Shown: positions 16,247 to 16,399 of the stretch, piece by piece | How the letters are laid out: each line of letters opens with the position of its first letter | Numbering within the stretch: the stretch's first letter is position 1 | NCBI RefSeq assembly: GCF_014639795.1 | Contig: NZ_BMGC01000009.1 | Location: 129,298 to 153,297, forward strand | Source of the DNA: Gordonia jinhuaensis | Lineage (GTDB): Bacteria > Actinomycetota > Actinomycetes > Mycobacteriales > Mycobacteriaceae | Direction: 5' to 3' | DNA: 24,000 bases | Position numbers and translations under genes: made by a program | Notes under the pieces: model-generated | What the model was told of the DNA's origin: nothing | The model's database searches: none | The model's input: the letters and a program-made list of their open reading frames with translations, nothing else

Positions 16247-16399
16247 TTACTTCGACGTCCCTGACGACGAGAAGGTGTCCAGGAACTTGTTGTCGGTGCC
16301 GCTGCTGCCGAAGGGCACAGTGGTGGTGCTGCCGAGCAGTCCGGTGATGAACTTGATGACCGACTCCAGGCCGTCGGGCAGTCCGAACGTTGAGCCCAT
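16247..16399 (-). CDS. Unannotated 50-aa Gly/Ser/Thr-rich peptide without signal sequence
   Basis: ATG at 16399-16397 with GAAGGAG 7 nt upstream; TAA at 16249-16247. 45 of 50 codons end in G or C. Translation MGSTFGLPDGLESVIKFITGLLGSTTTVPFGSSGTDNKFLDTFSSSGTSK. Missing from the track because it is <60 aa. Confidence 0.55.
   Translation of the reverse strand: MGSTFGLPDGLESVIKFITGLLGSTTTVPFGSSGTDNKFLDTFSSSGTSK

What the first reader, a model, noticed from the sequence alone, without database searches (positions are those of the whole stretch)
16247..16399. Unannotated 50-aa signal-less Gly/Ser/Thr-rich peptide gene between an Ag85-type mycoloyltransferase and a heterodimeric ABC exporter
Seen: the minus-strand ORF has a strong RBS (GAAGGAG, 7-nt spacer, ATG), 45 of 50 codons ending in G/C, and a TAA stop. 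It encodes MGSTFGLPDGLESVIKFITGLLGSTTTVPFGSSGTDNKFLDTFSSSGTSK. The peptide has no signal peptide and no TM segment. It has one short amphipathic stretch (LESVIKFITGLLG) and a Ser/Thr-rich tail. The gene sits on the same strand downstream of the mycoloyltransferase (separated by two hairpins) and 209 nt upstream of the ABC exporter pair. It is invisible in the ORF track (<60 aa). Established knowledge: in Corynebacterium glutamicum the major mycomembrane channel is built from very small signal-less peptides (PorA, PorH). These are O-mycoloylated on Ser by a mycoloyltransferase (MytC), and their route across the plasma membrane is unresolved. Inference: this peptide could be a PorA/PorH/ProtX-like mycoloylated envelope peptide in a non-Corynebacterium mycolate. 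It is genetically linked both to a candidate modifying enzyme and to a candidate exporter. The resemblance is in size, composition and context only; homology is not shown.
Basis: partly seen in the sequence, partly recalled or inferred. Interest (0 to 1): 0.8.

Follow-up and report, generated by a model that had tools for sequence, protein, structure and literature searches.

The report
Small peptide in mycoloylation-export gene module
A real 50-residue, signal-less peptide gene in Gordonia jinhuaensis sits in a recurring three-part gene module (tiny peptides, a Cmt1/MytC-type protein mycoloyltransferase, a two-subunit ABC exporter), which suggests, without proving it, that PorA/PorH-style lipid-anchored outer-membrane peptides, and a candidate exporter for them, exist outside Corynebacterium.

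Summary
The ORF is exactly as described, and it is a genuine gene. Its codon usage is the best of all 165 short frames in the window. A 58%-identical homologue keeps the frame, with dN/dS 0.33 over codons 1-33. It is already annotated as a hypothetical protein (WP_188586239.1).

The upstream esterase is Ag85-like. The esterase on the far side of the ABC pair (11088-12089 +) is the Cmt1/MytC type (PDB 4H18, E 1e-69), the only enzyme known to O-mycoloylate PorA/PorH.

The trio of tiny signal-less acidic peptide(s), Cmt1-like esterase and Rv1273c/72c-type ABC heterodimer recurs in three gene orders. These are G. jinhuaensis, the G. rubripertincta group plus Williamsia, and G. amarae. In Rhodococcus fascians, related tiny peptides lie between ppk2 and a Cmt1-like gene. 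ppk2 is the flank of porH/porA in Corynebacterium.

Sequence homology of the 50-aa peptide to these peptides or to PorA/PorH is not demonstrable. Its membership of the class rests on position and on a shared 19-base start motif.

Best reading (about 0.45): an exported envelope peptide that is mycoloylated by the Cmt1-like enzyme, probably exported by the ABC pair. Nothing biochemical has been shown.

The parts
16247..16399 (-). 50-aa peptide gene (MGSTFGLPDGLESVIKFITGLLGSTTTVPFGSSGTDNKFLDTFSSSGTSK), stop included
   Evidence: GC3 0.90, best codon score of 165 short frames; WP_188586239.1; 58%-identical homologue P0165, dN/dS 0.33 over codons 1-33
16392..16413 (-). Translation-initiation block GAAGGAGAACA-N3-ATGGGCTC (RBS, spacer, codons 1-3). 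It is shared with the first tiny-peptide gene (t1) of the G. rubripertincta group and of L022.
   Evidence: 0 matches in 100 shuffles; found only at peptide-gene starts in about 1 Mb of fetched loci
16595..16677 (-). Two G+C-rich hairpins after the stop of the upstream esterase (terminators). They separate the peptide gene from the Ag85-like gene.
   Evidence: sequence; fold: 12-bp and 16-bp stems; only spurious miRNA-hairpin matches in Rfam
16038..16246 (-). 209-nt spacer between the peptide stop and the ABC1 start. It is structured but has no canonical T-tract terminator, so co-transcription with the ABC genes is likely.
   Evidence: fold; no terminator-like site on this strand
14289..16037 (-). 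ABC1, a half-transporter (TMD-NBD, 582 aa) that contributes the degenerate Walker B (LLDD-P) and H-loop (TQR)
   Evidence: Pfam; MsRv1273c/72c chain A, E 4e-151; motifs; Walker B read directly from the translation
12247..14292 (-). ABC2, a half-transporter (681 aa) with consensus Walker B/H-loop and a non-canonical signature motif
   Evidence: (MsRv1273c/72c chain B, E 4e-147)
11088..12089 (+). Cmt1/MytC-like mycoloyltransferase (EstB, 333 aa, signal peptide), convergent with ABC2. It is the candidate peptide-modifying enzyme.
   Evidence: called gene, PF00756; Cmt1 4H18/8QHF E 1e-69, against PS1 6e-47 and Ag85A 2e-27; Ser/Glu/His triad positions aligned; 58-62% identity to the esterase of the module in other genomes
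16688..18172 (-). Ag85-type esterase (EstA, 494 aa as called) with a Ser/Thr/Pro-rich C-terminal tail. It is a neighbour but not part of the conserved module.
   Evidence: 27-30% identity to the module esterases; Ag85A 3e-40, Cmt1 1e-9

Best explanation
The ORF is a real small-protein gene.

**What the peptide looks like.** It has no signal peptide. It has an N-terminal MGS, one amphipathic helix (about residues 8-23), a conserved Ser/Thr-rich hinge (LLGSTTT-x-PFGSS) and a variable Ser/Thr/Gly tail.

**What class it belongs to.** By gene context, it is the G. jinhuaensis representative of a class of tiny (23-50 aa), acidic, signal-less peptides. Genes for these peptides sit next to Cmt1/MytC-type protein O-mycoloyltransferase genes in Gordonia, Williamsia and Rhodococcus.

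**Proposed mechanism.**
1. Shown: the gene has its own strong RBS, lies behind terminators of the upstream gene, and is probably co-transcribed with the ABC genes.
2. Inferred: the peptide crosses the plasma membrane through the adjacent Rv1273c/72c-type heterodimeric ABC exporter.
3. Inferred: in the periplasm the Cmt1-like esterase (11088-12089 +) transfers a mycoloyl chain from trehalose monomycolate to Ser/Thr of the hinge or tail.
4. Inferred: the lipidated peptide is retained in the mycomembrane. There it acts like PorA/PorH/ProtX, as a channel subunit or another surface component.

Step 2 is the weakest link (about 0.35 on its own).
For: **The gene is real.**
- Codon statistics support coding.
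- The frame is intact in strain L025.
- A full HMMER scan of 1.84e9 representatives finds one true homologue, P0165 (48 aa, 58% identity, E 1.6e-6). It has pS 0.45 against pN 0.19 over codons 1-33 and an in-frame 6-nt indel.

**The module recurs.**
- The Cmt1-like esterase matches Cmt1 at E 1e-69.
- Its orthologues in the G. rubripertincta group, L020, L022 and Williamsia muralis lie head-to-head with 2-3 tiny peptide genes, each with its own RBS and terminator, followed by the ABC1-ABC2 pair. These ABC1 proteins are the closest relatives of the window's ABC1, at 49-50% identity against 46-47% for generic actinobacterial homologues.
- The t2 peptides show pS 0.44-0.66 against pN 0.04-0.10 among L016, L022 and L026; pairs with L020 are weaker (pN 0.21-0.26).
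- G. amarae (L053) has ABC1-ABC2-cmt1-like-pep-pep, and L052 and the short L054 fragment look the same. That gives three different orders of the same trio, in different genomic surroundings.

**Link to the Corynebacterium porin locus.**
- R. fascians-group loci have ppk2, three tiny peptides, a hydrolase and a Cmt1-like esterase in that order. L028 has a tiny peptide, a ppk2 fragment, a second tiny peptide and a Cmt1-like esterase.
- ppk2 flanks porH/porA in Corynebacterium (PMC3792995).
- jackhmmer links Gordonia t1 peptides to two of the R. fascians peptides (E 2e-13 and 3e-7 in a 21,000-fragment database).

**Enrichment.** Small acidic RBS-preceded ORFs occur at 0.107 per kb within 2.5 kb of 80 Cmt1-like genes, against 0.014 per kb further away.

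**Tie between this peptide and the t1 genes.** It occupies the same position, and it shares the 19-base start motif found only at these gene starts.

**Physicochemistry.** It resembles PorA in being short, net acidic, sub-TM in hydrophobicity and amphipathic. AlphaFold gives a helix, a hinge and a short helix. In PorA the mycoloylated Ser15 sits in such a hinge (PMC11927696).

**Literature.**
- Mycoloylation sites are Ser, rarely Thr, in Ser/Gly-rich flexible stretches (PMC11066868).
- MytC orthologues are known in Gordonia, Nocardia and Rhodococcus, but no substrates are known there (PMC5310785).
- The physiological substrate of Rv1273c/72c is unknown (PMC12038006).
Against: - There is no significant sequence similarity between the 50-aa peptide and any other tiny peptide of the class. 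An HMM built without it does not retrieve it. Smith-Waterman z is at most 3.9. jackhmmer finds nothing. hhalign gives P = 0.01 and probability 4%.
- There is no similarity to PorA/PorH either.
- The window has neither groEL2 nor ppk2.
- About 70 of 80 metagenomic Cmt1-like loci show neither an ABC pair nor detectable tiny peptides. R. fascians has peptides and Cmt1 without a nearby ABC pair. The ABC link is therefore not obligatory.
- The ABC pair belongs to a very large family annotated as drug or lipid pumps (7830 hits below 1e-50). Its closest solved relative exports isoniazid and is thought to move a lipid. The ABC pairs of L052 and G. amarae are no closer to the window's pair than generic homologues are.
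- The Cmt1-like enzyme has a shorter alpha11-region insertion than C. glutamicum Cmt1, by 8 residues. Not all MytC orthologues were active in C. glutamicum.
- Protein O-mycoloylation has never been shown outside Corynebacterium.
- The T-rich hinge could instead be an O-mannosylation site (own knowledge).
Confidence: 0.45

Rival explanations
1. The peptide is a substrate of the Cmt1-like enzyme, or at least an envelope peptide, but the ABC pair is an unrelated Rv1273c/72c-type lipid or drug pump. On this reading the pump sits beside a mycoloyltransferase because both serve cell-wall lipid traffic, and the peptide crosses the membrane by another route.
For: The closest solved relative is MsRv1273c/72c, an isoniazid efflux pump with a proposed lipid-precursor substrate. 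R. fascians and L028 carry peptides and a Cmt1-like gene with no ABC pair within 8 kb. Generic homologues lie next to TetR regulators, as drug pumps do. The ABC pairs of L052 and G. amarae are not a tight clade with the window's pair.
Against: In Gordonia rubripertincta and Williamsia the tiny genes lie immediately upstream of ABC1 on the same strand. In G. jinhuaensis no terminator separates them. The trio survives three rearrangements and relocation to a different chromosomal context. All four metagenomic loci with an ABC pair carry a flagged small ORF next to the esterase, three of them convincing (L033's is doubtful).
Confidence: 0.2
2. The peptide is a secreted leaderless peptide exported by the ABC pair and released from the cell. 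It could be a pheromone, an antagonistic peptide or a PSM-like surfactant. It is not mycoloylated and is not a membrane component.
For: It has no signal peptide and lies next to an ABC exporter. In relatives it is a stand-alone small gene with a strong RBS followed by a hairpin or terminator. The ORF is an allelic hot spot: the flanks are about 98% identical but the ORF is only about 70% identical, with mosaic 5' codons in a third strain. That pattern is typical of pheromone, bacteriocin and surface-antigen loci. Gordonia is a notorious foam former (own knowledge).
Against: The peptides are acidic or neutral, whereas leaderless bacteriocins and PSMs are mostly cationic or strongly amphipathic. 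The window has no immunity, sensor-kinase or peptidase gene next to the peptide. The most consistent partner is the Cmt1-like gene, even where no ABC pair is present.
Confidence: 0.18
3. The peptide is a small inner-membrane accessory or regulatory subunit of the ABC transporter (as AcrZ and KdpF are for their transporters), or a leader peptide or uORF that controls ABC expression.
For: It lies immediately upstream of ABC1 on the same strand, separated by a structured 209-nt spacer. Some paralogues, such as t2 (TGLLAFIQLLGGLLQGLAGG), approach TM-like hydrophobicity.
Against: The 50-aa peptide is far below the TM threshold (1.03) and lacks flanking positive charges. Related tiny peptides occur with no ABC gene nearby. 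In relatives a hairpin or terminator separates the tiny genes from ABC1. Purifying selection acts on the amino-acid sequence and several tandem paralogues exist, which is unlike regulatory uORFs.
Confidence: 0.1
4. It is a chance ORF in G+C-rich DNA and is not expressed.
For: High-GC genomes produce many spurious ORFs. Two longer overlapping ORFs exist in other frames.
Against: It has the best codon score of 165 short frames, and the two other sense frames score negative. The RBS has ideal spacing. A diverged homologue conserves the frame, with dN/dS 0.33 and an in-frame indel. Public pipelines annotate it.
Confidence: 0.04

Closest known systems
PorA/PorH (and ProtX) of Corynebacterium glutamicum: tiny signal-less mycomembrane peptides that are O-mycoloylated by Cmt1/MytC
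   Same: The size range is the same (PorA is 45 aa, PorH 57 aa). Both lack a signal peptide, are net acidic and amphipathic-helical, and carry Ser/Gly-rich flexible segments. Both are stand-alone small genes with an AGGAG-type RBS followed by a hairpin or terminator, often in tandem pairs or triplets. Related peptides in R. fascians lie next to ppk2, as porH/porA do. A Cmt1-type enzyme is encoded nearby.
   Different: There is no detectable sequence homology. The window has neither groEL2 nor ppk2. In Corynebacterium the enzyme gene is unlinked and no exporter is known, whereas here the enzyme and an ABC exporter are linked. The host genus has longer mycolates and also encodes MspA-type porins. 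Neither modification nor pore activity has been shown.
Cmt1/MytC protein O-mycoloyltransferase (PDB 4H18, 8QHF)
   Same: The module esterase matches Cmt1 far better than it matches PS1/MytA or Ag85 (238 against 164 and 100 bits). It shares the GxSxS nucleophile, GGIIEAAT (Glu) and GTHSW (His) motifs. MytC orthologues in Gordonia are already noted in the literature.
   Different: The alpha11-region insertion is 8 residues shorter than in C. glutamicum Cmt1. The activity and acceptor substrates of the Gordonia enzymes are unknown.
MsRv1273c/72c (Rv1273c/Rv1272c): mycobacterial heterodimeric ABC exporter with one degenerate ATP site
   Same: It is the best solved match for both subunits (E about 1e-150). 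The genes are tandem TMD-NBD half-transporters. One site is degenerate, made of the ABC1 Walker B/H-loop and the ABC2 signature motif.
   Different: The mycobacterial pump is described as an isoniazid efflux pump and putative lipid exporter with no known physiological substrate. Here the genes are fused into a neighbourhood with tiny peptides and a Cmt1-like enzyme. Mycobacteria reportedly lack MytC-type enzymes.
Leaderless peptide with a dedicated ABC exporter (staphylococcal PSM-Pmt, leaderless bacteriocins)
   Same: A signal-less small helical peptide is encoded beside an ABC exporter (own knowledge of those systems).
   Different: Those peptides are cationic or strongly amphipathic and are released from the cell. 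Their transporters belong to other ABC architectures. They have no acyltransferase partner.

Membership tests
PorA / PorH family porins (NCBIfam NF033925, NF033937/8) | Sequence match to the family model | tested here: not met
   C. glutamicum PorA scores 83.5 bits and PorH (recalled sequence) 39.5 bits as positive controls. The 50-aa peptide and 19 related tiny peptides give no hit at E<=10. Smith-Waterman against PorA gives z = 0.4.
PorA / PorH family porins | Peptide of 60 aa or fewer, no signal peptide, acidic, amphipathic helix | tested here: met
   50 aa, net charge -1, maximum KD19 1.03, muH 0.62, helix at 8-23.
PorA / PorH family porins | Gene lies in the groEL2-ppk2 interval | tested here: not met
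   The window has neither gene. Tiny peptides sharing the gene context (not sequence-related to the 50-aa peptide) do flank ppk2 in R. fascians and L028.
PorA / PorH family porins | O-mycoloylation on Ser by Cmt1/MytC | not testable with these tools
   Only the context is shown: a Cmt1-like gene lies 4.2 kb away in the same module, and the peptide has a Ser/Thr/Gly-rich hinge and tail.
PorA / PorH family porins | Forms ion channels in planar lipid bilayers, or is present in organic-solvent cell-wall extracts | not testable with these tools
   This needs experiment.
Cmt1/MytC-type mycoloyltransferase (for 11088-12089 +) | Closer to Cmt1 than to the trehalose/arabinogalactan mycoloyltransferases (PS1, Ag85) | tested here: met
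   Cmt1 1.3e-69, PS1 6e-47, Ag85A 2e-27. The other corynebacterial Myt paralogues are not in the PDB and were not compared.
Cmt1/MytC-type mycoloyltransferase | Catalytic Ser-Glu-His triad (S189, E310, H341 of MytC) | tested here: met
   The aligned motifs are AGISSS / AGMSMS, GGIIEAAT / GGIIEAAT and GTHSW / GTHSW. The triad is defined in PMC11927696.
Cmt1/MytC-type mycoloyltransferase | MytC-specific loop / extended alpha11 region proposed to bind the peptide | tested here: inconclusive
   The region is 5 residues longer than in PS1 but 8 shorter than in Cmt1. The original definition of the loop (Huc 2013) could not be read.
Heterodimeric type-IV ABC exporter with a degenerate site (Rv1273c/72c, TM287/288 type) | Two tandem TMD-NBD half-transporters, one non-canonical ATP site, no C39 peptidase domain | tested here: met
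   Pfam finds ABC_membrane+ABC_tran only. ABC1 has LLDD-P and TQR; ABC2 has LDE and AHR but no LSGGQ. The best PDB hits are MsRv1273c/72c.
RiPP precursor peptide | Modification enzymes (LanM/LanB, YcaO, radical SAM, lasso cyclase and the like) or a leader-peptidase domain in the cluster | tested here: not met
   None of the called genes across about 20 kb carries such a Pfam family. The peptide has no Cys.
Leaderless bacteriocin / PSM-type peptide | Cationic or strongly amphipathic released peptide, with an immunity gene or a Pmt-type transporter | tested here: not met
   Net charge is -1, and -1 to -5 in nearly all relatives (one, L052_a, is neutral). There is no immunity-like small membrane gene. 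The transporter is of the ABCB type.

The most novel reading that the evidence does not exclude
The Rv1273c/72c-type heterodimeric ABC exporter is the missing plasma-membrane exporter for signal-less mycomembrane peptides. With a Cmt1/MytC-type enzyme and arrays of tiny acidic peptides, it forms a dedicated export, mycoloylate and insert pathway. That pathway would operate in Gordonia, Williamsia and Rhodococcus, genera thought to rely on MspA-type porins. This reading would also give the mycobacterial Rv1273c/72c family a first physiological substrate class.
Probability: 0.3. Interest if true: 0.85.

Novelty: new variant of a known kind. Interest (0 to 1): 0.72.

Why it matters
Three points make this worth testing.

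- **Scope of protein O-mycoloylation.** It has been demonstrated only in Corynebacterium. MytC orthologues were noticed in Gordonia, Nocardia and Rhodococcus, but no substrates were known (PMC5310785). Here the orthologue is genetically tied to concrete candidate substrates.
- **Export route.** How PorA/PorH/ProtX cross the plasma membrane without a signal peptide is still stated as unknown in 2026, and type VII secretion has been excluded (PMC13643282). A linked ABC exporter gives a specific hypothesis that gene knock-outs can test.
- **Porin types.** The field's picture is small helical peptides in Corynebacterium and MspA-type barrels in the other mycolata (PMC9233653). That picture would need revising if these peptides are envelope components. 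G. jinhuaensis encodes both kinds side by side.

The module also suggests a physiological substrate class for a transporter family studied as an isoniazid efflux pump.

Tried and rejected
- **Genome-collection scan with ABC1.** It returned only distant ABC proteins and no Gordonia.
- **Word-indexed search with the peptide alone.** It found only the peptide itself. The exact-product contig look-up found nothing.
- **Pfam and NCBIfam on all tiny peptides.** No family matched. NCBIfam on the esterases and the MspA genes was uninformative.
- **Sequence links from the 50-aa peptide to the t1/t2/t3 family.** An HMM built without the peptide does not retrieve it. Smith-Waterman with shuffles gives z of at most 3.9, uncorrected. 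jackhmmer finds nothing. hhalign gives P = 0.01. I therefore do not claim sequence homology.
- **Comparison with strain L025.** At 97.5% identity, with the intergenic DNA equally conserved, it is too close to say anything about selection.
- **Rfam on the intergenic regions.** Only spurious miRNA-hairpin matches to the terminator appeared.
- **Sigma-70 promoter scan.** It found nothing.
- **General ABC link to Cmt1-like genes.** Only 4 of 80 metagenomic Cmt1-like loci have a nearby ABC pair, so I rejected the link as a general rule.
- **L052 upstream of ABC1.** There are no tiny peptides there. They lie downstream of the esterase instead.
- **Huc et al. 2013, which defines the MytC loop.** The paper could not be read.
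- **A conserved upstream small ORF in the t1 leader.** I rejected it because a 1-nt indel between species breaks the frame.
- **P0164, the other hit of the full HMMER scan.** It is a repeat protein matching 13 residues and is spurious.
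Full report
**1. The observation**

The window comes from Gordonia jinhuaensis. The minus-strand ORF 16399..16247 exists exactly as described. It has GAAGGAG, a 7-nt spacer, ATG, 50 codons and TAA.

Forty-five of its 50 codons end in G or C. Its codon-usage log-likelihood of 0.54 per codon equals that of the long genes of the window (0.32-0.56). It ranks first among all 165 stop-to-stop frames of 40-80 aa, and the two other sense frames over the same span are negative.

The peptide has no signal peptide and no TM segment (maximum 19-residue hydropathy 1.03). It has an amphipathic stretch at about residues 9-19 and is 50% Ser+Thr+Gly. AlphaFold without an alignment gives a helix at 8-23 (block pLDDT 86), a coil, and a weak helix at 38-44.

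The neighbours are as stated:
- a PF00756 esterase upstream, followed by two strong hairpins;
- a pair of TMD-NBD ABC genes 209 nt downstream.

One correction is needed. The gene is annotated in public records as a hypothetical protein (GGB30049.1 / WP_188586239.1 / A0A916WTV1), and it is called on the source contig.

**2. Is it a conserved coding gene?**

A near-identical strain (L025, about 97.5% identity everywhere) keeps the frame. It is too close to be informative, because the intergenic DNA is just as conserved.

A full HMMER scan of 1.84 billion cluster representatives found one real homologue. This is P0165, 48 aa, MGSAIGLPYDLEQLVKLVTSLLGSTTTLPFGSSEISNSATGSTAGSSK. It is 58% identical over the full length, with E 1.6e-6 for the whole library.

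Codon-level comparison of the two genes gives these results:
- Over codons 1-33, pS is 0.45 and pN is 0.19, so dN/dS is about 0.33.
- The two genes differ by an in-frame 6-nt indel.
- The last codons are conserved (SSK or TSK, then stop).
- The tail (codons 34-42) evolves freely.

The conserved core is MGS, then GLP..LE..hK.hT.LLGSTTThPFGSS, where h stands for a hydrophobic residue.

**3. An unexpected feature: an allelic hot spot**

The metagenomic contigs that carry P0165 (L107, L108) are about 98% identical to the window over the 300 nt upstream, through the RBS and codons 1-3. The ORF then drops to about 70% nucleotide identity. The 100 nt beyond the stop cannot be aligned.

Strain L025 carries L107-like codons 4-7 inside an otherwise window-like ORF. 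The gene therefore sits at a recombination breakpoint, and divergent alleles circulate among very close strains. This pattern is typical of surface-exposed or secreted molecules.

**4. The neighbourhood, re-examined**

That protein is Ag85-like. Its best PDB hit is Ag85A at 3e-40, while Cmt1 scores only 1e-9.

A second esterase lies beyond the ABC pair, convergent with it, at 11088-12089(+). It matches Cmt1/MytC of C. glutamicum (4H18, 8QHF) at E 1.3e-69 (238 bits). PS1/MytA scores 6e-47 and Ag85A 2e-27. The Ser, Glu and His triad motifs are conserved, and GGIIEAAT is identical.

MytC is the enzyme shown to O-mycoloylate PorA, PorH and ProtX, and it is sufficient in vitro (PMC11927696). MytC orthologues were already noted in Gordonia, Nocardia and Rhodococcus, but not in Mycobacterium, and no substrates are known for them (PMC5310785).

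The ABC pair is a heterodimer with one degenerate ATP site. ABC1 has LLDD-P and TQR. ABC2 has LDE and AHR but lacks LSGGQ. Its closest solved relative is MsRv1273c/72c at E about 1e-150. That transporter is an isoniazid efflux pump whose physiological substrate is unknown and is guessed to be a lipid (PMC12038006).

**5. Does the arrangement recur?**

The nearest ABC1 relatives are only 49-50% identical and come from Gordonia and Williamsia. Their loci are the G. rubripertincta group (L016, L017, L019, L021), L020, L022 and Williamsia muralis (L026).

All these loci have the same layout:
- an esterase on the opposite strand;
- a gap of about 1 kb (up to about 1.9 kb in L020);
- the ABC1-ABC2 pair.

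That esterase is 58-62% identical to the window's Cmt1-like gene and only 27-30% identical to the Ag85-like one.

The gap holds two or three tiny genes, each with its own RBS; strong terminator hairpins follow them where checked (L016, L026). There are three types:
- t1: MGS[TL]EELGPLL.IL..L.G...
- t2: MTSSETGLLAFIQLLGGLL.GLAGGSSN
- t3: MFTSTQDMAALLPDVLDFIGGLL...

The t2 genes show pS 0.44-0.66 against pN 0.04-0.10 among L016, L022 and L026; comparisons with L020 are less clear (pN 0.21-0.26). Most of these genes are unannotated. A profile search recovers a few annotated copies, all from Gordonia, Williamsia or metagenomes.

A metagenome scan with the Cmt1-like esterase alignment gave 80 further loci. 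Most of them have neither an ABC pair nor recognisable tiny peptides. The exceptions are informative:
- L053 (Gordonia amarae) and L052 carry ABC1-ABC2-Cmt1-like-peptide-peptide; L054, a short fragment, shows one ABC gene, the esterase and one peptide. The tiny genes again have promoter-like AT-rich leaders and perfect terminators.
- L056, L066 and L068 belong to the Rhodococcus fascians group. Their esterase matches Cmt1 at 3e-79. They carry ppk2, three tiny genes, a hydrolase and the Cmt1-like gene in that order.
- The three R. fascians peptides are MGSAAQFITDIATGVYDGIVDAIVEQIVGVLTSGSAA, MSAELGDLLAIFIQLFSGISSSSD and MEFLSLLLQLLAVGSSEGTGSVVNIPGTLPS.
- L028 has a tiny peptide, a ppk2 fragment, a second tiny peptide and the Cmt1-like gene.

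ppk2 is one of the two genes that define the porH/porA locus in Corynebacterium (PMC3792995). jackhmmer seeded with a Gordonia t1 peptide reaches two of the R. fascians peptides (E 2e-13 and 3e-7 in a 21,000-fragment database).

Across the 80 loci I counted small, acidic, Cys/Trp-free ORFs preceded by an RBS. They occur at 0.107 per kb within 2.5 kb of the esterase and at 0.014 per kb further away (34 against 6). Some of these are duplicates from near-identical contigs, and the filter is crude.

**6. Where the 50-aa peptide stands**

It occupies the t1 position, as the first small gene upstream of ABC1. It shares with the t1 genes of the G. rubripertincta group and L022 a 19-base start block, GAAGGAGAACA-N1-4-RTGGGYTC. 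That block occurs nowhere else in about 1 Mb of fetched loci, and it never occurred in 100 shuffles of the window. An MGS N-terminus recurs widely in the class.

Sequence homology of the peptide body to any other member is not demonstrable:
- an HMM built without it does not retrieve it;
- the best Smith-Waterman z is 3.9, uncorrected;
- jackhmmer finds nothing;
- hhalign gives P = 0.01.

It matches no PorA or PorH model, although the models hit their positive controls. Its membership of the class therefore rests on context. It is the only such ORF in the window.

**7. Interpretation**

What is shown:
- It is a real, selected small-protein gene.
- It lies in a neighbourhood of tiny peptide(s), a Cmt1-type mycoloyltransferase and an Rv1273c/72c-type ABC heterodimer.
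- That neighbourhood is kept through three different gene orders and at least two chromosomal contexts within Gordonia and Williamsia.
- An independent link between tiny peptides, Cmt1-type genes and ppk2 exists in Rhodococcus.

What is inferred:
- The peptide is exported without a signal peptide, most simply by the adjacent ABC pair.
- It is O-mycoloylated by the Cmt1-like enzyme on its Ser/Thr-rich hinge or tail. Mycoloylation sites are Ser, and less often Thr, in Ser/Gly-rich flexible stretches with no strict motif (PMC11066868). PorA Ser15 lies in an inter-helix hinge.
- It then resides in the mycomembrane.

The main weaknesses are these:
- There is no sequence link to PorA/PorH or to the other tiny peptides.
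- The ABC link is absent in Rhodococcus and in most Cmt1-like loci.
- The ABC family is otherwise regarded as a set of drug or lipid pumps.
- There is no biochemical evidence for protein mycoloylation outside Corynebacterium.

I put the full model at about 0.45 and the ABC-export step at about 0.35.

**8. Novelty**

I found no description of these peptide families or of this module in the searchable literature. The current view assigns MspA-type channels to Rhodococcus, Nocardia, Tsukamurella and Mycobacterium, and small helical peptides to Corynebacterium (PMC9233653). The export route of PorA/PorH/ProtX is explicitly unresolved, and type VII secretion has been excluded (PMC13643282).

The finding is best filed as a new variant of a known kind. 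It is a PorA/PorH-like system by architecture and context. It is not a member of those families by sequence, and it has an added, linked exporter.

Noticed in passing
window 9442-10053 (+), 10132-10863 (+), 11088-12089 (+): Two MspA-family porin genes (PF09203) lie head-to-tail directly upstream of the Cmt1/MytC-like esterase on the same strand. They may form an mspA-mspA-cmt1 operon. This raises the question whether MspA-type porins are mycoloylated in Gordonia.
   Followed up: no
window about 9400-18200, flanked by 8108-8767 (MoCF/moaB2-like) and 18522-19187 (mscL): The whole envelope block sits between moaB2-like and mscL genes, downstream of mprA-mprB-htrA/pepD. The block consists of mspA x2, cmt1-like, ABC2, ABC1, the 50-aa peptide and the Ag85-like esterase. 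In M. tuberculosis moaB2 and mscL are direct neighbours (Rv0984/Rv0985c, from memory). The block therefore looks like an inserted 'mycomembrane island' next to the MprAB envelope-stress system. Its GC content is only slightly lower (0.63 against 0.68).
   Followed up: partly
window 16247-16399 compared with L107:674-820, L108 and L025:5061-5213: There is a sharp recombination boundary at codons 3-4 of the peptide gene. About 98% identity upstream gives way to about 70% identity inside the ORF, and the 3' flank cannot be aligned. A third strain is mosaic at codons 4-7.
   Followed up: partly
L016:5360-5445, L022, L026:7600-7690, L020 (upstream of the t1 genes): A non-coding element of about 60 nt (GGGGTGACAA...GCCATGGTGGATTTGGCTCAGTTGGTCGGGGG) is conserved upstream of the first tiny-peptide gene in Gordonia and Williamsia. 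A 1-nt indel between species rules out coding. G. jinhuaensis has only a weak counterpart. Whether it is a promoter, an operator or an RNA element is unknown.
   Followed up: no
L056:4550-8945; also L066, L068 (Rhodococcus fascians group): The gene order is ppk2, three tandem tiny peptide genes (37, 24 and 31 aa, each with an AGGAG RBS), an alpha/beta hydrolase and a Cmt1-like esterase (Cmt1 E 3e-79). Two of the peptides are deposited as hypothetical proteins (A0A143QGC6, A0A143QFW7). The position mirrors the Corynebacterium porH/porA-ppk2 locus.
   Followed up: partly
L053:1-5850 (Gordonia amarae); also L052:4148-11230: This is a third arrangement of the trio: ABC1-ABC2-Cmt1-like followed by two stand-alone tiny peptide genes, each ending in a perfect intrinsic terminator. 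One L052 peptide (MRLGSGSDSLTGILGALEGLLGGSGTSGGTGSLSTLLGSGSSGTTG) resembles the 50-aa peptide in build, with a helix followed by a long Ser/Gly/Thr tail.
   Followed up: partly
window 16688-17150 (-), the C-terminal third of the Ag85-like esterase: A low-complexity tail of about 150 aa, rich in Ser, Thr and Pro, with short repeats (SSGESSGESS, TPTTSDTPTTT). It ends in a Cys-x13-Cys motif. It varies in length between strains, with a 12-nt difference in L025 and 17 gap columns in L107.
   Followed up: no
L079:3871-3957 (-), L087:1502-1841 (-): Next to other Cmt1-like genes there is a different kind of tiny ORF: very hydrophobic 28-aa peptides (MLLP.VGSALGL.V...I.AV.), in tandem in L087. These look like single TM helices rather than PorA-like peptides.
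   Followed up: no
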